Positions 4,999 to 29,360 of a stretch of 34,628 nucleotides of DNA are shown here, piece after piece; positions within the stretch are counted from its first letter, which is position 1; every line of letters begins with the position of its first letter. The notes under the pieces were generated by a model. It searched no databases and was not told the origin of the DNA. It saw only the letters and a program-made list of their open reading frames with translations. The translations under genes and the position numbers were made by a program. Origin of the DNA: a virus (taxonomy: Duplodnaviria > Heunggongvirae > Uroviricota > Caudoviricetes); the IMG/VR virus record IMGVR_UViG_2558860472_000005, positions 1-34,628 of that record, one strand, 5' to 3'.

Positions 4999-5673
4999 TT
5001 AGGCTTTGATTTTGTATCTTCTTGGTTTTCCTGAGAAAATCACTGTACCAATTATAGAGCAATTACCGTTGATCTTAATGTAAGGCTCAGGCCAGTTTGG
5101 GTTTAACGCTTTGAGATAACGCTGTGTCCCATCTTCTATCAACCTTTTGAAGGTGGTTTCACCTGTATCGTGCATCAATGCAATAACGTCGTCACCGTGG
5201 CAGGCAGGTACTTCAGGATCGACAAAAATCATGTCTCCCGGGCGGTACTCATCAATCATTGAATCACCTATCACCCGCAAGATATAAGTCATTTCCCCAC
5301 AGGGTACAGGGCAGGGATACGTTTCTGCTGTGCTCAAATCAACCTCAGAATATCCAACTTCTTTCCATGCTCCGGCCTGTACCCATGATATGACAGGGAC
5401 TAATGTGATTTGTTTATTAGTGATTGAAACATCAGGTTTTTTTGTGATGTTCGTTGTCTGGTGTTCTTGATCGAGCCATCCGACAGGCAGGTCGAAACAT
5501 CTTTCGATGTGTCGTGCCATGCTGTCACCGATATTTTTAGTAGCACCATCTCCCATAAACCTGCTGGTCTGGGTTGGCTCGCGATCAATCATAGTGGCAA
5601 AGGAAGAATTCCCGCCAACACCATCTCTCAGTTTTCTGGCGTTAGACCGCCGGATGTCATGGATTGTTTTCAT
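4999..5673 (-). CDS. CI-type repressor, LexA-like S24 peptidase family (e14 CohE/YmfK-like)
   Basis: 224 aa with an N-terminal HTH region. The C-terminal part has self-cleavage motifs (VISWVQAGAW, RVIGDSM, ..FKRL..). It is divergent from the cro-like gene. Confidence 0.9.
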   Translation of the reverse strand: MKTIHDIRRSNARKLRDGVGGNSSFATMIDREPTQTSRFMGDGATKNIGDSMARHIERCFDLPVGWLDQEHQTTNITKKPDVSITNKQITLVPVISWVQAGAWKEVGYSEVDLSTAETYPCPVPCGEMTYILRVIGDSMIDEYRPGDMIFVDPEVPACHGDDVIALMHDTGETTFKRLIEDGTQRYLKALNPNWPEPYIKINGNCSIIGTVIFSGKPRRYKIKA

Positions 5674-10868: not shown

Positions 10869-10885
10869 TTTTGTGGAGAAAGTTG

Positions 10886-11257
10886 ATGCGTGATATTCAA
10901 ATGGTTCTTGAACGTTGGGGTGCATGGGTGGCAAATAATCACGAGGATGTCACTTGGTCGTCTATTGCTGCAGGATTTAAAGGACTAATCCCTTCAAAAG
11001 TAAAATCCCGCCCGCAATGTTGTGACGATGACGCGATGATCATTTGTGGGTGTATGGCTCGCCTGAAAAAGAACAACAGCGATTTGCACGATTTATTAGT
11101 GGATTACTATGTAGGAGGTATGACATTTATGGCGCTTGCCCGTAAACATGGGCGTTCTGATTGCTGGGTTGGGCGTTTATTGCAAAAAGCGGAAGGAGTA
11201 GTTGATGGTATGTTGATAATGCTAGATATTGAATTGGAAATGGAACGTAAAATTTAG
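10886..11257 (+). CDS. Late-gene antiterminator Q-like protein
   Basis: The likely start is ATG at 10886, 7 nt after [22 protein letters not shown].. with a Cys cluster ([14 protein letters not shown]), and the last gene before the lysis region. The family assignment is from memory. Confidence 0.6.
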
Positions 11258-11486
11258 TTATGTTATGAATAAATAAATGCTAATGATTTTTGTAAGATAG
11301 CTCATTTTATGTCCATAGGTGATGTATGCATTAATATGATTAATTTGTCTCCTTATAAAAATAAGATTATGTAAATAATAACAAAGGGTGACATTATTAA
11401 GTGTTGCTTTTTCTTAGTAAGTTGTTATCCTACTTAAGGTTGAATGATATTGTATCGAATAAAGTTGCTTATATAGAATTATTTTT

Positions 11487-12014
11487 ATGTTATGGCTTAT
11501 TGAGTTAGTTAATAGGATGATTGAATCAATGCTTTCAAATGTAATTTTAAGTGGAGCTATGTCCACGTTATTGGCTGCATTTCTAATTTTTGTGTTTAAG
11601 GAGTATATAAAAAGGCCACCTAATTTTTCAGGGGTGTTTGAGATCGAGTGTAAAACGCTAAAATCATCATATAATTCATATGTAAACCTAACTACATTCT
11701 ATACATTAGTGTTGATTTGTGATAATAACACTATAGAAGGACATATTGAAAAAATAAAAGATATCGAAAATGATGGGTATGAAAGAAAATATATTGGCGT
11801 GCATCGCAATATTGGCGATGTCAATGGTGTAATTAAAAGAAATTACTTAAGACCTAACCATGCTTCGTTGAATATAAAAATGCATGGTGATAAGAGGGAT
11901 TATACTATTATGCTATATTTTAAGAAGGTGAATACGAAAAATATGAAAGGAACTTTTTTATCTACTGCTGCAGATTCTTCTGGAGATGTTAAGTGGCAGC
12001 GAAAAAATTTTTAA
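11487..12014 (+). CDS. Hypothetical single-pass membrane protein (first gene of the AT-rich cassette)
   Basis: N-terminal hydrophobic helix (VILSGAMSTLLAAFLIFVF) followed by a soluble domain. Very low G+C. The start codon is uncertain (several Met, weak SDs). It overlaps the next gene by 22 nt. Confidence 0.5.
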   Translation: MLWLIELVNRMIESMLSNVILSGAMSTLLAAFLIFVFKEYIKRPPNFSGVFEIECKTLKSSYNSYVNLTTFYTLVLICDNNTIEGHIEKIKDIENDGYERKYIGVHRNIGDVNGVIKRNYLRPNHASLNIKMHGDKRDYTIMLYFKKVNTKNMKGTFLSTAADSSGDVKWQRKNF

Positions 12015-12637
12015 TTTATTTACTGTCGTTGCCATATTTAATAATGGCTTCGATTATCATAAAGCTTAAAGTTAAAAGTATAATTGATGATTATGAGAAA
12101 TGTACTACTTATATTTACTGTAACTCGAAGAAATATAATAACATTTCTCCTGTTATGATTGATATATTAAGGTTAGCAGAGGATCATCGACAATTATTGC
12201 ATAGAGGGATTGACCCCATTGCAATCATTAGAACTTTTTATCTGAGGATATTTAAAAATATACACCAAGGAGCGAGCACTATAGAACAGCAGTTTGTGAG
12301 AACTATAACTAAAAGATACGAAAAAACAATACGTAGAAAGATAAGAGAGCAGATATTGGCTATATTGATTAGAAATGTATCAACTCCAGATGATATATGT
12401 AAGTGTTATCTTTCTTGTTGTTACTATGGCTATGGAACTTATGGGATAGATAATCTTTTAAAAAAGAAACAAAATATCAGTGATTTTGATATTGTTGCAA
12501 TGATTAAATATCCATTCAGGGGAGAAGTTGTTTCAGTTACAGAGGAACGATTTAAACATAGGTCGCTCTATCTTTCCACTTTATATAAATTAAATGCACA
12601 AAGGGATATGATTTTTTTGCGAAAATATAGTGGGTGA
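11993..12637 (+). CDS. Membrane-anchored GT51-family peptidoglycan glycosyltransferase homologue (MtgA-like)
   Basis: GTG start 7 nt after GGAG, with an N-terminal TM helix (FLIYLLSLPYLIMASIII). The GT51 motifs occur in order: AEDHRQLLHRGID (EDxxFxxHxGxD), QGASTIEQQ (GGSTITQQ) and RRKIRE (RKxxE). Both catalytic Glu positions are present. Confidence 0.7.
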   Translation: MAAKKFLIYLLSLPYLIMASIIIKLKVKSIIDDYEKCTTYIYCNSKKYNNISPVMIDILRLAEDHRQLLHRGIDPIAIIRTFYLRIFKNIHQGASTIEQQFVRTITKRYEKTIRRKIREQILAILIRNVSTPDDICKCYLSCCYYGYGTYGIDNLLKKKQNISDFDIVAMIKYPFRGEVVSVTEERFKHRSLYLSTLYKLNAQRDMIFLRKYSG

Positions 12638-12834
12638 TTATGTTAAGTGTATTTTATTATGTGTCAAAAAGTTTAGTCATCTCTGCTTAATGTATAATCG
12701 TGAATGTTTTTATTCAGATTTTATGCATGTCAAGTTGATGAGTGCCGTCGACATAAGATATGGGGATAATGAATAGTTTACAATCGTAAATAATAGAATA
12801 TCCTGTTAAAAGTGGTTACTTCTCCACGCAGCTT

Positions 12835-12866
12835 AAACCCGCCGTCGAGCGGGTTTTGTCGTTTCT
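12835..12866 (+). terminator. Hairpin terminator upstream of the holin (tR'-like position)
   Basis: AAACCCGC-CGTCGA-GCGGGTTT followed by TGTCGTTTCT. It lies just right of the point where G+C returns to backbone level. Confidence 0.5.
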
Positions 12867-13008
12867 GGGTCTGGGGATTCCTTGGTCCTAGCCTATCCCG
12901 CAGTTATCCATTAACTCGGCTTCTTTGACGTTTCCGCTTCTGATTTGCGGTACATGATGTTTCCTCAATTTGCACCTGCTGTATCAGCGAGGTGAGAGAT
13001 AACTACAA

Positions 13009-13335
13009 ATGCCTCATAACCCAAATACCTGGCTGGAGTTGGTCCAGAGCTGGTGGCGTGGAGACACACCGCTGGGCGCAGTGATTATGTCGATCGTTAT
13101 GGCTGGTTTACGTATTGCCTATTTTGGCGGCGGTGGCGGATGGAAACGAAAAACACTCGAAATTTTGCTCTGTGGCGCTCTGACGCTGACATTTGCATCC
13201 GCTCTTGAGTATGTCGGATGGCCTAAATCACTTTCTGTTGCCATTGGTGGTGGTGTTGGGCTGATCGGTGTCGATGCTATTCGTGGGGCAGCAATGCGAG
13301 TAATCGGTAACAAATTTGGTAGCTCGAAGGAGTAA
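13009..13335 (+). CDS. S: Holin, lambda S family
   Basis: 108 aa with multiple TM segments and a charged C-terminus, located immediately upstream of the endolysin. The overall pattern resembles lambda S. Confidence 0.85.
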   Translation: MPHNPNTWLELVQSWWRGDTPLGAVIMSIVMAGLRIAYFGGGGGWKRKTLEILLCGALTLTFASALEYVGWPKSLSVAIGGGVGLIGVDAIRGAAMRVIGNKFGSSKE

Positions 13336-13815: not shown

Positions 13816-14260
13816 GCTAGTTATCGCTGCTTTCTTCGTTACTATTATTGGTTCTTTCATCTGGTCAGCGAATCATTACCACAATCAAGCCATTGAATAC
13901 AAAAAGCAGCGCGACGAAAACGCTATGGCATTACATTCGGCTATGGCGACGATCTCTGATATGCAGAAGCGTCAACGTGACGTAGCTGAACTTGACGCCA
14001 GATACACAAAGGAGCTTGCTGATGCTAACACGACTCTCGAAAGTCTCCGTACTGATGTCTCTGCTGGTCGTAAGCGCTTGCAATTCGCCGCCACCTGTGC
14101 AAAGTCAACGACCGGAGCCAGCGGCATGGGCTATGGAGAAAGTCCAAGACTTACAGCTGATGCTGAACTCAATTATTACCGCCTCCGAAGTGGGATCGAC
14201 AAGATAACTGCACAGGTTAACTACTTGCAGGAGTACATCAAGACACAGTGCCAGAAATGA
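13799..14260 (+). CDS. Rz: i-spanin Rz
   Basis: N-terminal TM anchor and a coiled-coil periplasmic domain. It overlaps the end of the endolysin gene and has Rz1 embedded in it. Confidence 0.9.
   Translation: MKLSYKLVIAAFFVTIIGSFIWSANHYHNQAIEYKKQRDENAMALHSAMATISDMQKRQRDVAELDARYTKELADANTTLESLRTDVSAGRKRLQFAATCAKSTTGASGMGYGESPRLTADAELNYYRLRSGIDKITAQVNYLQEYIKTQCQK
14022..14207 (+). CDS. Rz1: o-spanin Rz1 (embedded lipoprotein)
   Basis: Lies in the +1 frame inside Rz, with ATG at 14022, 7 nt after GGAG. It has a lipobox (LLVVSAC) followed by a Pro-rich mature peptide. Confidence 0.8.
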   Translation: MLTRLSKVSVLMSLLVVSACNSPPPVQSQRPEPAAWAMEKVQDLQLMLNSIITASEVGSTR

Positions 14261-14332
14261 ATCTATAGATGACACTCCACGTTCGTATAAGATAATGCTA
14301 AATTACTATTAGCTTAATCACAGGAGACGGAC

Positions 14333-15196
14333 ATGGAAAGAGGTGTGGTATTTAGTGCATGCGAATTACTTAAAACCGAGGATGGAAAAGGCATCCGTAC
14401 AGGTAAATGGATTAGTCAATTAGAAATAAACTATCTATGTCTTTATTGGGATAAACTAGTTTCACCCACTAATAATATTATACATACAGCATTAAATAAC
14501 GAGGATGAATTAGAAAAATGTGGATTGCTAACCAGACCGGTATATAGACATCATGGTTGTTTTGATGGCCAATATATGGCGGATTTTTATGCTGAAACTC
14601 ATGCCAAAACAATAGATATACTTAGGCATGCGGATTCTTCTGTCGATTGGCGCATGCATTTTTTAAGTGACCAAATAAACTTGGTGCCTGAATTATCTAG
14701 AACCTCAGAAGTGATACGTTTTGAGCTAGCAAATTTATTACCCGTTCCCACAGAAGATGTGCACCTACATGATATTCTTGATTTCAAGGAAAGAAGAAAA
14801 CCTGAATTAATCGCTTTACATGAATATCTTGATGAGCTTTACTTGGAAATAAAACGTTCTGGTGATATCAATCTTCAGAAAGCAAAAGCTCTTTCTAATC
14901 TTAAACAAGCAATAAAGGATATCGAACGCTTAAATTGTGAAGTGTGGAAAAGTCCAATAAAATTTAGCATCTCTACTTCTTTTGAGTTCGATTTTTCACA
15001 AATATTTAGTCTGGCGGGAACTGTTTTATCTATGTCAGTAGATTATCCTTATAATGTTATTGGAGGGGTAAGTAGTTTGGCTTGTTTTTTGGGAGGATGC
15101 ATAAAAATAAAGCCGCAATTTCAACAAGTGTTATCATTAGGTAATGATAAATTAGTTTACATAAGCAAAGGAAAATCGGAGGGTATTATTTCCTGA
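14333..15196 (+). CDS. Hypothetical 287-aa protein (post-lysis moron)
   Basis: Low-G+C ORF with SD AGGAG between Rz and HNH. The C-terminal part is hydrophobic (IFSLAGTVLSMSV ... VIGGVSSLACFLGGCI). No family recognised. Confidence 0.6.
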   Translation: MERGVVFSACELLKTEDGKGIRTGKWISQLEINYLCLYWDKLVSPTNNIIHTALNNEDELEKCGLLTRPVYRHHGCFDGQYMADFYAETHAKTIDILRHADSSVDWRMHFLSDQINLVPELSRTSEVIRFELANLLPVPTEDVHLHDILDFKERRKPELIALHEYLDELYLEIKRSGDINLQKAKALSNLKQAIKDIERLNCEVWKSPIKFSISTSFEFDFSQIFSLAGTVLSMSVDYPYNVIGGVSSLACFLGGCIKIKPQFQQVLSLGNDKLVYISKGKSEGIIS

Positions 15197-15272
15197 TTTT
15201 TGATTCTCATAATCAATGAATGTTTTTTGTGAATATACTTATTTTAACCCTATAAATAATCAAGGTAATAAA

Positions 15273-15623
15273 GTGCCTCCTCGTATCCCGAAAGCCTGCC
15301 GTGCTCGAGGTTGCCGTAATACCACCACAGACCCGTCAGGCTACTGCGAAAGCCACAAAAGCGAAGGCTGGAAGCAATACAAGCCAGGCCAGTCCCGACA
15401 CCAGCGCGGTTATGGTTCGAAATGGGATGTTATCCGTGAACGTGTGCTCAAGCGTGACAAAGGCCTGTGTCAGTTGTGTTTGCGTGCCGGTGTGGTGCGT
15501 GAGGCGAAAACCGTTGACCACATCATCCCTAAAGCACATGGCGGCACTGATGCCGACAGTAATCTGCAGAGTCTGTGCTGGCCGTGTCATAAGGCGAAGA
15601 CGGCCCGTGAACGGTTGAAGTAA
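15273..15623 (+). CDS. HNH endonuclease (terminase-associated)
   Basis: CxxC ... DHIIPKAHGGTDADSNLQSLCWPCHKAKT. The likely start is GTG at 15273 (MPPRIPKACRARGC); the track ORF starts at 15216. It sits immediately upstream of terS, as in HK97-like cos phages. Confidence 0.85.
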   Translation: MPPRIPKACRARGCRNTTTDPSGYCESHKSEGWKQYKPGQSRHQRGYGSKWDVIRERVLKRDKGLCQLCLRAGVVREAKTVDHIIPKAHGGTDADSNLQSLCWPCHKAKTARERLK

Positions 15624-25561: not shown

Positions 25562-25710
25562 CGGCTGAATACCTCACTGATCGCTTCTTTGACTGCGCCA
25601 GCTACTGGCGCATTAATCCCTTCGAATTGCTGAATATGCCGATCAGTGAAATTCCCTTGCTGGTCAGTCAGGCAAACAGGATAGAGCAGGAGAAACGCAC
25701 ACATGGCTGA
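25292..25710 (+). CDS. Tail assembly chaperone, frameshift-extended form
   Basis: The fusion ...WLVAGFF/PPGLTAEYLTDRFF...EKRTHG is predicted from the slippery site. Confidence 0.6.
25543..25549 (+). promoter_or_regulatory. Programmed -1 frameshift slippery heptamer T_TTT_TTC
   Basis: The heptamer is in the correct X_XXY_YYZ phase of the chaperone frame. The -1 frame stays open to 25710 and ends overlapping the tape-measure start. Confidence 0.7.
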
Positions 25711-27538
25711 ATTTGAGCTTAAGGCGTTGATCACCGGTGTCGACAGGCTTTCTCCCGCGCTGTCGAAAATGCAAAAGAAAATCCGGGGATTTAAACGCCA
25801 GGCGGAAGAAGCGTCACAGGGTGGGCTGGCGCTTGGTGGCGGACTGGCAGCGGGGCTGACGCTTTCCCTGAAATCTTATGCCGATCAGGAAAACGCCGCT
25901 ACCGGGCTGAAAGTCGCCATGATGGATGCGAACGGCGAGGTTGGAAAGAGCTTTCAGGACATCAATAAACTGGCTATTGGCCTGGGTAACCAGCTACCCG
26001 GTACAACGGCTGATTTCCAGAACATGATGCAGATGCTGGTGCGTCAGGGGATCCCGGCAGAAAACATTCTGGGTGGTGTGGGTAAAGCGACAGCTTATCT
26101 TGCGGTACAACTGAAAAAAACACCGGAAGCGGCTGCCGAGTTTGCCGCAAAGATGCAGGATGCTACCGGAACGGCCTCAGAAGACATGATGGGGCTGTTC
26201 GACACAATTCAGAAGGCGTTTTATCTGGGCGTTGACGACACCAACATGCTGTCATTCTTCACTAAAACCAGCTCTGTTCTGAAGATGGTGAATAAGGACG
26301 GTCTTCAGGCTGCACAGAGTCTTGCCCCCATCAGTGTCATGATGGATCAGATGGGGATGAACGGGGAGTCGGCAGGTAATGCCCTGCGAAAAGTTATCCA
26401 GTCCGGATTAAGCGTTAAGAAAATCAGGGACGTCAATAAAATCATGGCCCGCCAGAAACTCGGGGTACAGCTCGATTTTACTGATGGCAAAGGGAGTTTT
26501 GGTGGTCTTGATAACATGTTTAAGCAACTGGCAAAGTTGCGAAAACTGACCGACGTTAAGCGAACAGGCGTACTTAAGGCAATATTTGGTGATGATGCCG
26601 AAACCCTTCAGGTGGTCAATGCACTAATCGATAAAGGAAAGGATGGCTACGATCAGATCCAGCAGAAGATGAATAAACAGGCCAGCCTGAATAAACGTGT
26701 TCAGGCACAGCTTGGTACGCTGTCCAACCTGTGGGAGGCAATGACGGGGACCGCAACTAACGGCCTTGCGGCTATTGGCGGCGCATTTTCTGGTGACGCC
26801 AAAAATATCACGCAATGGCTGGGGGAGTTGGGGGAAAATTTCACGAAGTTTGCGGATGAAAATCCCCGGGTTATTCGCGGCGTCGTCGGGCTTGCTGCCG
26901 GTCTTGCGGTTCTGAAACTGGGATTGATGGGCGTGGGCAGTGCCATCAGTATTGTCAGCAGGATTATGTCGATGACGCCGATTGGCGTGATTGCGACGGC
27001 GATAGCCCTGGCTGCGGGATTAATTATCACTAACTGGGATGTTGTCGGACCTTATTTCAAGAAGCTCTGGGAAACCATTAGTCCTTATTTTGAGGCTGGC
27101 TGGGAACTTCTGAAGAAGGTTTTTGCCTGGTCGCCGCTGGGGATGGTGATCAATAACTGGGGACCGGTTGTTAAGTGGTTTCAGGATATGTGGGATAAGC
27201 TGAAGCCGATTATTGAATGGTTTACCGACAGTTCCGGTGACACGGTCGATGCCATTAACTCGGCGCAGTGGGGCGCGGGTGCTTATGATGCTTATGGGAC
27301 GGGAATACCGGCGCGGGGATACACACCTTATCCGGCGGTAGATCTGGCTCAGGCAAACAACGCCTCCGATGCCACAGGCCCGAATCCCTTCATGATTAAC
27401 AAAGCTTCTGCGCCAAAAGTTGACGGTGAGATCAAGGTCTCTTTTGTGAATTCGCCTCCGGGTATGCGGGTTATGGAAACGCGATCCAGCGGTTTTGATA
27501 TGAATCACGATGTTGGCTATACGCATATTGGCAGATGA
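25703..27538 (+). CDS. Tail tape measure protein
   Basis: 611 aa and helical, with a hydrophobic block (GVVGLAAGLAVLKLGLMGVGSAISIV ... IATAIALAAGLII). It lies after the chaperone pair. Confidence 0.9.
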   Translation: MAEFELKALITGVDRLSPALSKMQKKIRGFKRQAEEASQGGLALGGGLAAGLTLSLKSYADQENAATGLKVAMMDANGEVGKSFQDINKLAIGLGNQLPGTTADFQNMMQMLVRQGIPAENILGGVGKATAYLAVQLKKTPEAAAEFAAKMQDATGTASEDMMGLFDTIQKAFYLGVDDTNMLSFFTKTSSVLKMVNKDGLQAAQSLAPISVMMDQMGMNGESAGNALRKVIQSGLSVKKIRDVNKIMARQKLGVQLDFTDGKGSFGGLDNMFKQLAKLRKLTDVKRTGVLKAIFGDDAETLQVVNALIDKGKDGYDQIQQKMNKQASLNKRVQAQLGTLSNLWEAMTGTATNGLAAIGGAFSGDAKNITQWLGELGENFTKFADENPRVIRGVVGLAAGLAVLKLGLMGVGSAISIVSRIMSMTPIGVIATAIALAAGLIITNWDVVGPYFKKLWETISPYFEAGWELLKKVFAWSPLGMVINNWGPVVKWFQDMWDKLKPIIEWFTDSSGDTVDAINSAQWGAGAYDAYGTGIPARGYTPYPAVDLAQANNASDATGPNPFMINKASAPKVDGEIKVSFVNSPPGMRVMETRSSGFDMNHDVGYTHIGR

Positions 27539-27554
27539 CGGAACCAGATATAAT
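27528..27554 (+). promoter_or_regulatory. Candidate promoter of the PH-domain cassette
   Basis: TTGGCA (27528-27533), 15-nt spacer, perfect TATAAT (27549-27554). The spacer is short, so this is tentative. Confidence 0.35.
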
Positions 27555-27590
27555 TTGTCTTTAAGTTTGTTATCAACTGAAGGGAAATCT

Positions 27591-27968
27591 ATGGGTCTGT
27601 TACATGCCATTATAGGTAATGCCGGTGAAATTAATGCATCAGATGCACAACAGGAATTAGGGGCTGTTTTAGGTGAGGGAGAAAATGTCGAACTTGCCTA
27701 TAAACTCATTCGTGACCAAATTATTCTGACTAACAGAAGGTTAATTTTTATTGATAAGCAGGGTGTCACAGGGAAAAAAGTAGAGTATCGTTCGATTCCT
27801 TATAAATCTGTGACAAACTTTTCTATTGAAACCGCCGGGCATCTTGATCTTGATGCTGAAATGAAGATCTGGATTTCTGGTATTGCAGAACCGATAAAAA
27901 AACAGTTCAGTAAAGGAGCAAACATTTATAAATTGCAGGCTCATCTGGCTCAAAAAATAGCAGGGTAA
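27591..27968 (+). CDS. Bacterial PH-domain protein (bPH_1 / YokE-like)
   Basis: The likely start is ATG at 27591 after GAAGGGA. MGLLHAIIGNAGEINASDAQQELGAVLGEGENVELAYKLIRDQIILTNRRLIFIDKQGVTGKKVEYRSIPYKSVTNFSIETAG..DLDAEMKIWISG matches the remembered bPH_1 family pattern. G+C is lower than the flanking tail genes. Confidence 0.7.
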   Translation: MGLLHAIIGNAGEINASDAQQELGAVLGEGENVELAYKLIRDQIILTNRRLIFIDKQGVTGKKVEYRSIPYKSVTNFSIETAGHLDLDAEMKIWISGIAEPIKKQFSKGANIYKLQAHLAQKIAG

Positions 27969-27994
27969 ACCTTACATTAATTTATGTCTTTCAT

Positions 27995-28018
27995 GCCCAC
28001 TTCGGTGGGCTTTTTTAT
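27995..28018 (+). terminator. Rho-independent terminator after the PH-domain gene
   Basis: GCCCAC-TTCG-GTGGGC followed by a T6 tract. Confidence 0.75.
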
Positions 28019-28031
28019 ATCCGGAGTTTAT

Positions 28032-29360
28032 ATGACGTGGAAAGACAGGCTTCAGGACGCGTCATTTCGCGGTGTGCCGTTTAAGGTTGAAGAAGAAAGT
28101 GCGGGAACAGGTCGCCGTGTGGAAACACACGAATATCCGAACCGCGACAAACCCTATACCGAAGATCTGGGAAAAGTCACTTTCCGCCCGTCCATCACGG
28201 CTTATGTGGTGGGCGATGACTGCTTTGACCAGCGCGATCGCCTGATTGACGCGCTGAATAAACCCGGTCCCGGCACGCTTGTCCATCCGACTTACGGTGA
28301 GCTGAAAGTCTGTGTTGACGGGGAAGTTCGGGTCAGCACATCGAAGAGTGAAGGGCGTATTGTCCGCTTTGACCTGAAGTTTGTCGAAGCGGGAGAACTC
28401 TCTTACCCCACTTCAGGTGTGGCGACGGCGCAGACGCTGATGTCATCCTGTTCTGCACTGGATGACTGCATCAGTGACAGTTTCAGTGGTTTCAGTATCG
28501 ATGGCGTGGCGGATTTTGTGCAGAACGACGTCGTCGGTAATGCCAGCACAATGCTTGGGTATGTTTCTGATGCGATGAAAGTGGTGGATTCTGTCGTATC
28601 GGATGCCGCCAGACTGTTGCAGGGGGATATCTCGGTACTTCTGCCTCCGCCATCGTCAGGCAAAAACTTCGTTGAGCAGGTGCAGAAAATGTGGCGTACC
28701 GGGAAACGCCTTTATGGTAACGCCAGCGACCTGGTCACCATGATCAAGACGCTTTCCGGTGTCAGCCTTGGCAGCGATCTGCAACCGCGCGGCGTCTGGA
28801 AAACGGTCAGTAAAACCACCGCCAAGGCTACGCAGCAGCGTAACGTGGTTGCCAGCACCCTTCGTACGACCGCAATCAGCGAAGCGGCGTATGCCATCAC
28901 CCGATTGCCTGCGCCAACAACTTCCGCGGTGATGCAGAATGCCGCAGTGGGGCAGTCAACAACACCCGCGCAGAGCACCGGCTGGCCTTCCGTCACGCAT
29001 CCGGCACTGAACAATGCACCGGCGGTGAAAAACACGGTTGACCTGCCAACGTGGGAAGAACTGACTGACATTCGCGACACACTGAATACGGCAATTGATA
29101 AGGAGTTGTCCCGTACAACCAGTGATGCGCTGTTTCTGGCACTGCGCCGGGTGAAAGCAGATCTGAATGCGGATATCAACACGCGCCTTGAACAGTCTGC
29201 ACGGATCATTCAGCGCACGCCGGATGAGGTCTTACCCGCGCTGGTGCTGGCGGCGACCTGGTTTGATAACGCGGCGCGTGACGCGGACATTATCCGGCGT
29301 AATGCCATTACGCATCCCGGCTTTGTGCCGGTGATCCCTCTGAAGGTGCCAGTGCAATGA
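28032..29360 (+). CDS. DNA circulation protein (Mu gpN-like)
   Basis: The true start is probably ATG at 28032 after GGAG, because the track start 27984 would include the terminator. MTWKDRLQDASFRGVPFKVEEES..GRRVETHEYPNRDKPYTEDLG is the typical N-terminal domain. Confidence 0.8.
   Translation: MTWKDRLQDASFRGVPFKVEEESAGTGRRVETHEYPNRDKPYTEDLGKVTFRPSITAYVVGDDCFDQRDRLIDALNKPGPGTLVHPTYGELKVCVDGEVRVSTSKSEGRIVRFDLKFVEAGELSYPTSGVATAQTLMSSCSALDDCISDSFSGFSIDGVADFVQNDVVGNASTMLGYVSDAMKVVDSVVSDAARLLQGDISVLLPPPSSGKNFVEQVQKMWRTGKRLYGNASDLVTMIKTLSGVSLGSDLQPRGVWKTVSKTTAKATQQRNVVASTLRTTAISEAAYAITRLPAPTTSAVMQNAAVGQSTTPAQSTGWPSVTHPALNNAPAVKNTVDLPTWEELTDIRDTLNTAIDKELSRTTSDALFLALRRVKADLNADINTRLEQSARIIQRTPDEVLPALVLAATWFDNAARDADIIRRNAITHPGFVPVIPLKVPVQ

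What the first reader, a model, noticed from the sequence alone, without database searches (positions are those of the whole stretch)
27528..28018. Self-contained PH-domain cassette interrupting the tail operon
Seen in sequence: between the tape measure gene and the DNA-circulation gene lies a lower-G+C ORF (27591-27968). It has its own SD, a possible promoter (TTGGCA-15-TATAAT) and a strong terminator (GCCCAC-TTCG-GTGGGC-T6 at 27995-28018). The neighbouring genes otherwise overlap or abut. The sequence fits the bacterial PH domain family (bPH_1, YokE-like) as I remember it. The track ORF starts at 27510 and 27984 are artefacts that absorb non-coding DNA.
Inference: this is a moron expressed independently of late transcription. 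A terminator inside the tail operon also implies that Q-modified polymerase must read through it.
Basis: partly seen in the sequence, partly recalled or inferred. Interest (0 to 1): 0.5.

Follow-up and report, generated by a model that had tools for sequence, protein, structure and literature searches.

The report
Bacterial PH-domain moron in prophage tail operon
A small, foreign-looking gene for a ring-forming bacterial PH-domain protein sits in a swappable cargo slot between two tail genes of an SfV-like E. coli prophage; it is an ordinary phage "moron" of unknown cellular role, though the slot itself has several alternative cargoes.

Summary
ORF 27591-27968 encodes a full-length PF08000 (bPH_1) protein, E 3e-48. 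It is about 60% identical to the crystallised PHb1 ring proteins 3HSA and 3DCX, and all 8 conserved-site residues are present.

G+C is 0.375, against 0.554 for the tail operon. The gene has a Shine-Dalgarno site, a TTGGCA-15-TATAAT promoter-like site and a -11.8 kcal/mol hairpin followed by T6.

The phage is SfV/SfII-like, with lambdoid regulation and a Mu-like tail. A Q antiterminator gene lies at 10871-11257.

Only 28 of about 1099 E. coli genomes with this tail module carry the cassette. 532 have an empty junction. Others carry unrelated cargo at the same site: a 164-aa protein, a 225-aa lipoprotein-like protein, or a reverse-strand OB-fold gene.

- The terminator is not the cassette's own. 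A homologous hairpin sits in the empty junctions.
- The -35 hexamer lies inside the tape-measure gene.

The cassette is old at this site. Edwardsiella phages carry it there too, with pS of about 0.75 and pN/pS of about 0.09.

In other phages, bPH_1 genes mostly sit in lysogeny modules. The most likely reading is a lysogen-expressed accessory gene. Independent transcription and function remain untested.

The parts
25703..27538 (+). Tail tape-measure gene. It is the left anchor of the cargo slot, and its last codons contain the -35-like hexamer.
   Evidence: PF10145, E 1.5e-26. PHROG tape-measure families match. The 3' end ...GATGTTGGCTATAC..TTGGCAG is shared with SfII/SfV and with all cargo alleles.
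27528..27554 (+). Sigma-70 promoter-like site: TTGGCA (27528-27533), 15-nt spacer, TATAAT (27549-27554). The -35 lies in resident tape-measure codons and the -10 lies in the insert.
   Evidence: 11/12 match. 3 such sites in the window against 0.9 expected. The -35 is also present in the cassette-free SfII junction. Not conserved in the Edwardsiella copy. Function not shown.
27536..27972 (+). Approximate extent of the DNA present here but absent from SfII/SfI/SfV-type junctions (about 433 bp, low G+C).
   Evidence: The query spans 2901 bp here against 2468 bp in the empty relatives. Junction sequences were compared directly. G+C is 0.375.
27580..27585 (+). Shine-Dalgarno-like AAGGGA, 5-6 nt before the ATG.
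   Evidence: Read from the sequence.
27591..27968 (+). Gene for a 125-aa PHb1-type bacterial PH-domain protein (PF08000 group 1). Soluble, with no transmembrane segment.
   Evidence: PF08000, 163 bits, covering positions 2-121 of 122. phrog_7115. 3DCX and 3HSA match at E 1e-38 to 4e-39. 8/8 conserved-site residues; maximum Kyte-Doolittle 19-residue window 0.58. pN/pS 0.08-0.09 against the Edwardsiella copies.
27995..28016 (+). Intrinsic terminator: GCCCAC-TTCG-GTGGGC plus T6. It is a resident feature of the junction, homologous to the hairpin of cassette-free SfII/SfV, and it is read through by late transcription.
   Evidence: Found by the scan. Fold -11.8 kcal/mol, z -4.1. The homologous hairpin is annotated as a terminator in KC736978 and is present in 532 E. 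coli genomes. It is 100% conserved in the Edwardsiella cassettes.
28032..29360 (+). Mu gpN-like 'DNA circulation'/baseplate hub gene. It is the right anchor of the slot. Its GGAG (28023-28026) follows the T-run directly.
   Evidence: PF07157, E 3e-34, aligned from residue 7. phrog_184 baseplate hub. The PGAP start is the same in related genomes.
10871..11257 (+). Q-family late antiterminator gene, needed for the read-through inference.
   Evidence: PF06530, E 2.9e-51. Holin at 13009, then lysis, head and tail genes all on the + strand. Related prophage annotation.

Best explanation
This is a moron: an accessory cargo gene sitting in a recombination-prone slot between the tape-measure gene and the gpN-like baseplate gene of an SfV/SfII-like temperate phage (lambdoid regulation, HK97-type head, Mu-type tail).

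Shown:
- The slot is bounded by the tape-measure stop codon on the left and by the T-run and Shine-Dalgarno site of gene N on the right.
- In E. coli the slot exists in at least five states: empty with a hairpin terminator, the PH gene, two unrelated + strand genes, and a - strand OB-fold gene.
- The PH gene is a captured copy of a widespread, very conserved cellular gene (PHb1, PF08000).
- It keeps every residue of the acidic inter-subunit binding site.
- It has been under strong purifying selection at this site for as long as the E. coli and Edwardsiella phage tail genes have diverged.

Inferred:
- In the lysogen the gene is transcribed from the junction promoter (-35 in the tape-measure codons, -10 in the insert) and terminated at the resident hairpin.
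- During lytic growth, Q-modified RNA polymerase reads through that hairpin, so the gene is also part of the late transcript.
- The protein assembles into a dome-shaped oligomeric ring like its 60%-identical crystallised relatives. It binds a host or phage protein partner at the cytoplasmic face of the membrane.
- It acts for the lysogen and not for the virion. The most likely roles are a superinfection-exclusion or defence-like function, or an envelope-stress function.
For: - Family and structure.
- Patchy presence: 28 genomes with the cassette, against 1099 with the tail module and 532 with the empty junction.
- Alternative cargo at the same site, each with its own promoter-like site and its own hairpin plus T-run, including one gene on the opposite strand that cannot be a late-operon gene.
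- Atypical composition.
- Promoter-like site rarer than chance; stable terminator.
- Q gene upstream.
- Same slot occupied in Edwardsiella phage EPP-1 and a second contig. Synonymous sites are saturated (pS 0.73-0.76, like sheath at 0.67) while pN is only 0.06-0.07.
- Cellular homologs at 66-72% identity are stand-alone chromosomal genes.
- Among 68 other viral contigs with a bPH_1 gene, 45 place it on the same strand as an upstream HTH or ImmA-type repressor, a downstream integrase, or both. That is the operon expressed in lysogens. Examples are ul36 ORF124 and a Vibrio P2-like phage with cI-PH-SIR2-like-int.
- Literature: PHb1 was noted in phage lysogeny modules, and B. subtilis YozO is in the sigma-W envelope-stress regulon (PMC2817789). 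bIL285 orf2 ('sie285') carries a PHb domain and is constitutively expressed in lysogens (PMC6127208).
Against: - There are no expression data.
- The promoter has a suboptimal 15-nt spacer and is degraded in the Edwardsiella cassette (TATAAC; best 8/12). The gene may therefore depend on late read-through there.
- No hit to any PADLOC defence model or NCBIfam model.
- The protein has no membrane segment, unlike proven Sie proteins.
- The family is far more conserved (60-66% identity across phyla) than typical defence genes.
- sie285 itself was not among the Sie genes shown to protect.
- Four of the 28 E. coli copies are split by IS1, so the gene is dispensable.
Confidence: 0.7

Rival explanations
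1. Late-only accessory gene. The gene has no working promoter of its own. It is made only as part of the Q-antiterminated late transcript and acts during lytic growth, for example as a counter-defence factor, an assembly helper or a lysis helper.
For: The gene is co-oriented with and embedded in the late operon. The promoter has a 15-nt spacer and is not conserved in the Edwardsiella copy, yet the gene is under strong purifying selection there. The position is conserved next to the tape-measure gene in two host genera.
Against: Relatives without the gene are the majority, and they include the isolated, sequenced phages SfV, SfII and SfI. Homologs in other phages sit in lysogeny modules and not in late operons. 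The neighbouring cargo alleles include a reverse-strand gene and secreted or lipoprotein-like products typical of lysogen-expressed morons.
Confidence: 0.18
2. Functionless passenger. The cassette is a neutral hitch-hiker, or a decaying remnant of horizontal transfer, with no role for phage or host.
For: It is rare (2.5% of modules). Four copies are disrupted by IS1. No function is known for the family.
Against: pN/pS is 0.08-0.09 over saturated synonymous divergence, lower than for the sheath (0.13) and tube (0.17) genes. The reading frame is intact and 8/8 site residues are kept. The Shine-Dalgarno site and terminator are conserved between genera.
Confidence: 0.05
3. Virion or tail-assembly component specific to this phage subgroup, for example a cap or plug acting with the tape-measure protein.
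For: The gene is adjacent to the tape-measure gene. PHb1 rings were speculated to be end caps of larger assemblies.
Against: It is absent from about 97% of phages with 96-97% identical flanking tail genes. The C5 symmetry reported for the closest solved relatives (abstract of PMC2817789) does not obviously match a tail built on 3- or 6-fold symmetry (that tail symmetry is general knowledge, not tested here). The Edwardsiella phages keep the gene although their tape-measure protein is only 32% identical.
Confidence: 0.04

Closest known systems
PHb1 proteins of Shewanella (PDB 3HSA PHb1(sl), 3DCX PHb1(sa); Pfam PF08000 group 1; Xu et al. 2010, PMC2817789)
   Same: Same length. About 60% identity over the whole chain. 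All eight conserved acidic-site residues are present: D42, D55, Q57, K63, E80, D86, D88, E90. It is a single-domain soluble protein.
   Different: This copy is phage-borne and inserted in a tail operon, whereas the solved proteins are chromosomal stand-alone genes. Ring formation of this copy is not shown. No PF08000 member has a known function.
HK97 gp15 moron (Juhala et al. 2000; Cumby et al. 2012; cited; its position next to the tape-measure gene is from my own knowledge)
   Same: A small foreign gene with a promoter-like site and a terminator, lying inside the late tail operon next to the tape-measure gene, and absent from close relatives.
   Different: gp15 is an inner-membrane protein with shown superinfection-exclusion activity. 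The protein here has no membrane segment, an unrelated fold, and no tested phenotype.
PHb-domain genes of phage lysogeny modules: ul36 ORF124, Min1 ORF77, bIL285 orf2 (sie285)
   Same: Same protein family (33-41% identity). They are prophage accessory genes. sie285 is constitutively expressed in lysogens.
   Different: They lie between the repressor and the integrase and not in a tail operon. sie285 has an extra hydrophobic N-terminal part. No protective activity is reported for sie285 in the text read.
Tab of Pseudomonas phage JBD26 (PMC10884400)
   Same: [quoted passage not shown]
   Different: There is no sequence or fold relation. Tab lies between the terminase genes and has a paired anti-Tab. 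No such partner gene is seen here.

Membership tests
Pfam PF08000 bPH_1 / PHb1 group 1 | Profile match above the curated cut-off over the full domain | tested here: met
   163.2 bits against a cut-off of 27.7. Residues 3-122 match profile positions 2-121 of 122.
Pfam PF08000 bPH_1 / PHb1 group 1 | Single-domain protein of about 125 residues with no extra C-terminal domain or N-terminal extension | tested here: met
   125 aa. Group definitions are in PMC2817789.
Pfam PF08000 bPH_1 / PHb1 group 1 | Conserved inter-subunit acidic site: D42, D55, Q57, K63, E80, D86, D88, E90 | tested here: met
   8/8 present. Perimeter residues I40, R41, V59 and T60 are present; F85 is L here.
Pfam PF08000 bPH_1 / PHb1 group 1 | Dome-shaped oligomeric ring | not testable with these tools
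   Inferred only, from about 60% identity to 3HSA and 3DCX.
Phage moron (Juhala/Hendrix sense) | Present in one phage and absent from otherwise near-identical relatives | tested here: met
   Flanks are 96-97% identical in SfII, SfI and SfV, which lack the 433 bp. 28 genomes carry it against 532 with the empty junction.
Phage moron (Juhala/Hendrix sense) | Own promoter upstream | tested here: inconclusive
   11/12 consensus match, but with a 15-nt spacer and the -35 inside the tape-measure gene. Not conserved in the Edwardsiella copy. No transcript data.
Phage moron (Juhala/Hendrix sense) | Terminator directly downstream | tested here: met
   Hairpin plus T6, -11.8 kcal/mol. However, the hairpin is homologous to the one in empty junctions, so it is a resident feature and was not imported.
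Phage moron (Juhala/Hendrix sense) | Base composition unlike the surrounding genome | tested here: met
   G+C 0.375 against 0.554; GC3 0.30 against 0.57-0.61.
Phage moron (Juhala/Hendrix sense) | Expressed from the repressed prophage | not testable with these tools
   Needs RNA-seq or a reporter assay. Support is indirect only, from homologs located in lysogeny operons.
Superinfection-exclusion proteins (Sie2009-type, HK97 gp15) | Membrane-spanning or hydrophobic N-terminal segment | tested here: not met
   The maximum Kyte-Doolittle 19-residue window is 0.58, so there is no transmembrane segment.
Superinfection-exclusion proteins (Sie2009-type, HK97 gp15) | Blocks DNA entry of superinfecting phage | not testable with these tools
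   Requires phage challenge of lysogens or expression strains.
Catalogued anti-phage defence systems (PADLOC-DB 2.0) | Match to a defence-protein model | tested here: not met
   0 families at E <= 1.
Conserved virion/tail structural gene of SfV-like phages | Present in all members of the tail-module lineage | tested here: not met
   Absent from SfV, SfII, SfI and most of the 1099 E. coli modules.

The most novel reading that the evidence does not exclude
The PHb1 ring is a prophage-borne protective factor, acting by superinfection exclusion, abortive infection or tail/tape-measure interference. The tape-measure/gpN junction of SfV-like phages would then be a previously undescribed hotspot where such lysogen-protecting cargoes are exchanged. 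This would give the first function to the widespread, 60%-conserved PF08000 family. It would also link it to the lactococcal 'sie285' PHb protein and to the cI-PH-SIR2 arrangement seen in a Vibrio P2-like phage.
Probability: 0.2. Interest if true: 0.6.

Novelty: new member of a known kind. Interest (0 to 1): 0.3.

Why it matters
Morons in late operons are a well-known source of lysogenic conversion and prophage-encoded phage resistance. This one adds little in kind.

Two points may be useful. First, the junction between the tape-measure gene and gene N of the very common SfV/e14-like prophages of E. coli and Shigella behaves as a multi-allelic cargo slot with defined anchors. That makes it a convenient place to mine accessory genes. 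Second, the cargo here belongs to PF08000, a family conserved from Firmicutes to Proteobacteria. The family has solved structures but no known function, and it recurs in phage lysogeny modules.

E. coli lysogens with and without the cassette offer a simple natural system to look for a phenotype.

Tried and rejected
- PADLOC and NCBIfam scans of the PH protein found nothing. PADLOC scans of the four alternative cargo proteins scanned (the 46-aa ORF of the IS5-disrupted allele was not included) also found nothing.
- An Rfam scan of 27300-28200 gave only sub-threshold chance hits. There is no sign of a structured RNA other than the terminator.
- Antisense ORFs 27741-27953 and 27800-27925, and the long antisense ORF 27020-27610, were treated as mechanical. 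They overlap well-supported genes and have no support of their own.
- Literature searches for PF08000, DUF1696, YozO/YvbH/YjqA, PH-domain plus anti-phage, and tape-measure hotspots found no functional study of PHb1 and no description of this slot.
- The Tai system paper had no connection.
- I tested whether the empty SfII junction could be a simple microhomology deletion of the PH gene between GCAG in the tape-measure end and GCAGG at the PH end. The 3' spacer and hairpin do align. However, the joint would need an extra 1-nt change to restore the stop codon, so this stays a weak hint.
- I considered recent transfer between the E. coli and Edwardsiella phages. I rejected it because synonymous sites are as saturated as in the flanking sheath gene.
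- Structure prediction was not run, because solved structures at about 60% identity already exist.
Full report
**Observation**

Between the tape-measure gene (25703-27538, PF10145) and the Mu gpN-like DNA_circ_N gene lies a 125-codon ORF, 27591-27968. The true start of the gpN-like gene is 28032.

The region has G+C 0.375, against 0.554 for the rest of the tail operon. GC3 is 0.30 against 0.57-0.61.

The ORF has a Shine-Dalgarno-like AAGGGA. Upstream is a promoter-like TTGGCA-15-TATAAT at 27528-27554. Downstream is GCCCAC-TTCG-GTGGGC-T6 at 27995-28016.

- The hairpin folds at -11.8 kcal/mol (z -4.1) and was picked up by the terminator scan.
- The promoter-like site matches 11 of 12 consensus positions. 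Only three such sites exist in the 34.6-kb window, against 0.9 expected. The local chance is about 4%.
- Its 15-nt spacer is suboptimal, and the standard scan (16-18 nt) did not list it.

The longer ORF calls starting at 27510 and 27984 are mechanical artefacts. Profile and structure alignments begin at the short starts, and RefSeq annotation of related genomes uses them.

**What the gene encodes**

The product is a full-length PF08000 (bPH_1) protein, 163 bits, E 3e-48. It matches phrog_7115, whose function is unknown.

It is about 60% identical over its whole length to the crystallised PHb1 proteins 3HSA and 3DCX. These form dome-shaped oligomeric rings (PMC2817789). All eight residues of the conserved acidic inter-subunit site described there are present. 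There is no hydrophobic segment.

The family is unusually conserved, with 60-66% identity to proteins of Photobacterium, Clostridia and Bacilli. Homologs at 72% (Edaphovirga) and 66% (Photobacterium) are stand-alone chromosomal genes in non-phage surroundings. The phage gene therefore looks like a captured cellular gene.

**What the phage is**

The tail region is 96-97% identical to Shigella phages SfII, SfI and SfV and to prophages in 1099 of 5426 complete E. coli genomes.

The window carries the following:
- a lambda-type integrase and an S24 repressor;
- a Q-family antiterminator (PF06530, 10871-11257);
- a holin at 13009;
- HK97-type head genes and Mu-type tail genes, all on the + strand.

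The annotation of a related prophage at dusA gives the same layout. The SfIV paper describes the Q-dependent late operon of this group (PMC3851460).

**The site is a cargo slot**

SfII, SfI, SfV and most E. coli relatives are 433 bp shorter here. The table gives the census over complete E. coli genomes.

| Slot state | Genomes |
|---|---|
| Empty junction | 532 |
| 164-aa protein with a hydrophobic N-terminus | 85 |
| 225-aa lipoprotein-like protein | 55 |
| tRNA_anti-like OB-fold protein, opposite strand | 79 |
| PH cassette | 28 |
| IS5-disrupted variant | seen, not counted |

Four of the 28 PH copies are split by IS1. About 320 modules were not classified.

All alleles share the end of the tape-measure gene on the left. 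On the right, the + strand alleles share TTTTTT-ATATCCGGAGTTTATATG, which is the T-run, Shine-Dalgarno site and start of gene N; the - strand OB-fold allele shares only the start of gene N. Each + strand cargo has its own promoter-like site (9-11 of 12, some with an extended -10) and its own distinct hairpin before the shared T-run.

**Two corrections to the 'self-contained cassette'**

First, the -35 hexamer lies in the last codons of the tape-measure gene and is present in cassette-free SfII (TTTGGCAGGTAA).

Second, the empty SfII and SfV junctions also carry a terminator, TCCCAC-TCCG-GTGGGA-T6. It is annotated as such in KC736978. It is 13/16 identical to the window's hairpin, with a compensatory outer pair. 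The spacer before it aligns with the 3' untranslated spacer of the PH gene.

The terminator is therefore a resident feature of this junction type. It is either older than the cassette or left behind when a PH-type cassette was lost. The SfIV-type junction, which has a different tape-measure gene, has no hairpin. This fits the second possibility but does not prove it.

**Age and selection**

Edwardsiella phage EPP-1 and a second contig carry an 88-89% identical protein in the same slot, with the identical hairpin.

Between the E. coli and Edwardsiella copies, synonymous sites are saturated (pS 0.73-0.76). This is comparable to the sheath gene (0.67) and the tube gene (0.58). pN is only 0.06-0.07, giving a ratio of 0.08-0.09 against 0.13 for sheath and 0.17 for tube.

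The cassette has therefore been at this site for a long time under strong purifying selection. It is neither a recent insertion nor junk.

The Edwardsiella tape-measure protein is only 32% identical. However, a remnant of the E. coli-type tape-measure 3' end, including TTGGCA, survives in the intergenic region. This shows a tape-measure swap upstream of a retained cassette. The -10 hexamer there is TATAAC, and no good promoter is found. This weakens the case for independent transcription.

**Where the family sits in other phages**

A scan of IMG/VR returned 80 loci. Twelve are SfV-like with the same slot.

Of the other 68, which were not dereplicated, 45 have an upstream HTH, S24 or ImmA-type repressor pair, a downstream tyrosine or serine integrase, or both. 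These lie on the same strand and within a few genes of the PH gene. That is the lysogeny operon. ul36 ORF124 and a Vibrio P2-like phage (cI-PH-SIR2-like-int) are examples.

A few sit just upstream of the terminase genes. Some look like host genes flanking a prophage. None is in a tail operon.

Xu et al. already noted PHb1 genes in lysogeny modules. They also cited B. subtilis YozO as a sigma-W envelope-stress gene. The lactococcal bIL285 orf2 ('sie285') has a C-terminal PHb domain and is constitutively made in lysogens. Protection was shown only for other Sie genes (PMC6127208).

**Interpretation**

The best-supported reading is a moron that is expressed for the benefit of the lysogen and also carried on the late transcript. 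It encodes a PHb1 ring that binds a protein partner. I put about 0.7 on this general model. I put much less, about 0.2, on a specific anti-phage role. Against the anti-phage role: there is no PADLOC match, no membrane segment, and the family is very conserved.

Rivals:
- A late-only accessory gene, 0.18.
- A functionless passenger, 0.05, disfavoured by the selection signature.
- A virion component, 0.04, disfavoured by absence from about 97% of near-identical tail modules.

**Novelty**

The gene is already annotated as 'PH domain-containing protein' in RefSeq. Morons and phage-borne PHb1 genes are both known. I found no description of the multi-allelic slot between the tape-measure gene and gene N of SfV-like phages, or of the resident orphan-like terminator. 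I rate this a new member of a known kind, of modest interest.

Noticed in passing
Same slot in relatives: L003 1636-2130, L006 1567-2244, L004 1569-2015 (- strand), L005 1628-3030: At least four other cargo alleles occupy the tape-measure/gpN junction in E. coli: a 164-aa protein with a hydrophobic N-terminus (85 genomes), a 225-aa lipoprotein-like protein (55), a reverse-strand tRNA_anti-like OB-fold protein (79), and an IS5-disrupted gene. Only the OB-fold protein has a Pfam match, and the four proteins scanned against PADLOC have no match.
   Followed up: partly
window 11258-13008: Two ORFs lie between the Q gene and the holin gene: 11487-12014 (no family) and 11993-12637 (Transgly domain). 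A terminator-like hairpin follows at 12835-12856. The related HH107 prophage has a different Q and a DNA methyltransferase at this position, so this looks like a second variable slot, in the position where stx sits in Stx phages.
   Followed up: no
window 13869-15274: A DUF6236 ORF (14333-15196) sits between the lysis genes and the HNH/terminase genes. This stretch has no match in the HH107 prophage, so it is probably another moron.
   Followed up: no
L014 4073-5990 and L007 2065-3990 (Edwardsiella phages): The tape-measure protein is only 32% identical to the window's, while sheath, tube and gpP are 82-86% identical. A remnant of the E. coli-type tape-measure 3' end survives in the intergenic DNA. 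This indicates replacement of the tape-measure gene alone.
   Followed up: partly
L011 2136-3289 (E. coli EC_J_9 and three other genomes): The PH gene is split by an IS1 insertion in 4 of the 28 E. coli copies.
   Followed up: partly
L009 2740-6902 (Vibrio phage 10N.286.45.B12_PE001): A bPH_1 gene lies between the CI repressor and a 612-aa SIR2-like protein that matches PADLOC Aga_SIR2 and PDC-S65 models. The integrase follows. This is a possible two-gene arrangement in a P2-type defence hotspot.
   Followed up: no
L097 1100-1215 (SfIV): The SfIV-type module has a different tape-measure gene and a different N-terminus of gene N. It has no hairpin between them, unlike SfII, SfV and the window.
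   Followed up: partly
window 4959 (- strand): A strong promoter-like site (TTGACA-16-CATAAT, 11/12) points leftward, just downstream of the S24 repressor gene (4999-5673, - strand).
   Followed up: no
L099 (NZ_AP023208.1, 70-kb 'plasmid' pMTY18781-3): The same tail module with the PH cassette is found on a record deposited as a circular 70-kb plasmid.
   Followed up: no
window 27233-27337 vs L012: The tape-measure gene length varies among PH-carrying prophages: 611 aa here against 651 aa in HH107. BLAST segments overlap near the 3' end, which suggests a repeat-mediated indel.
   Followed up: no
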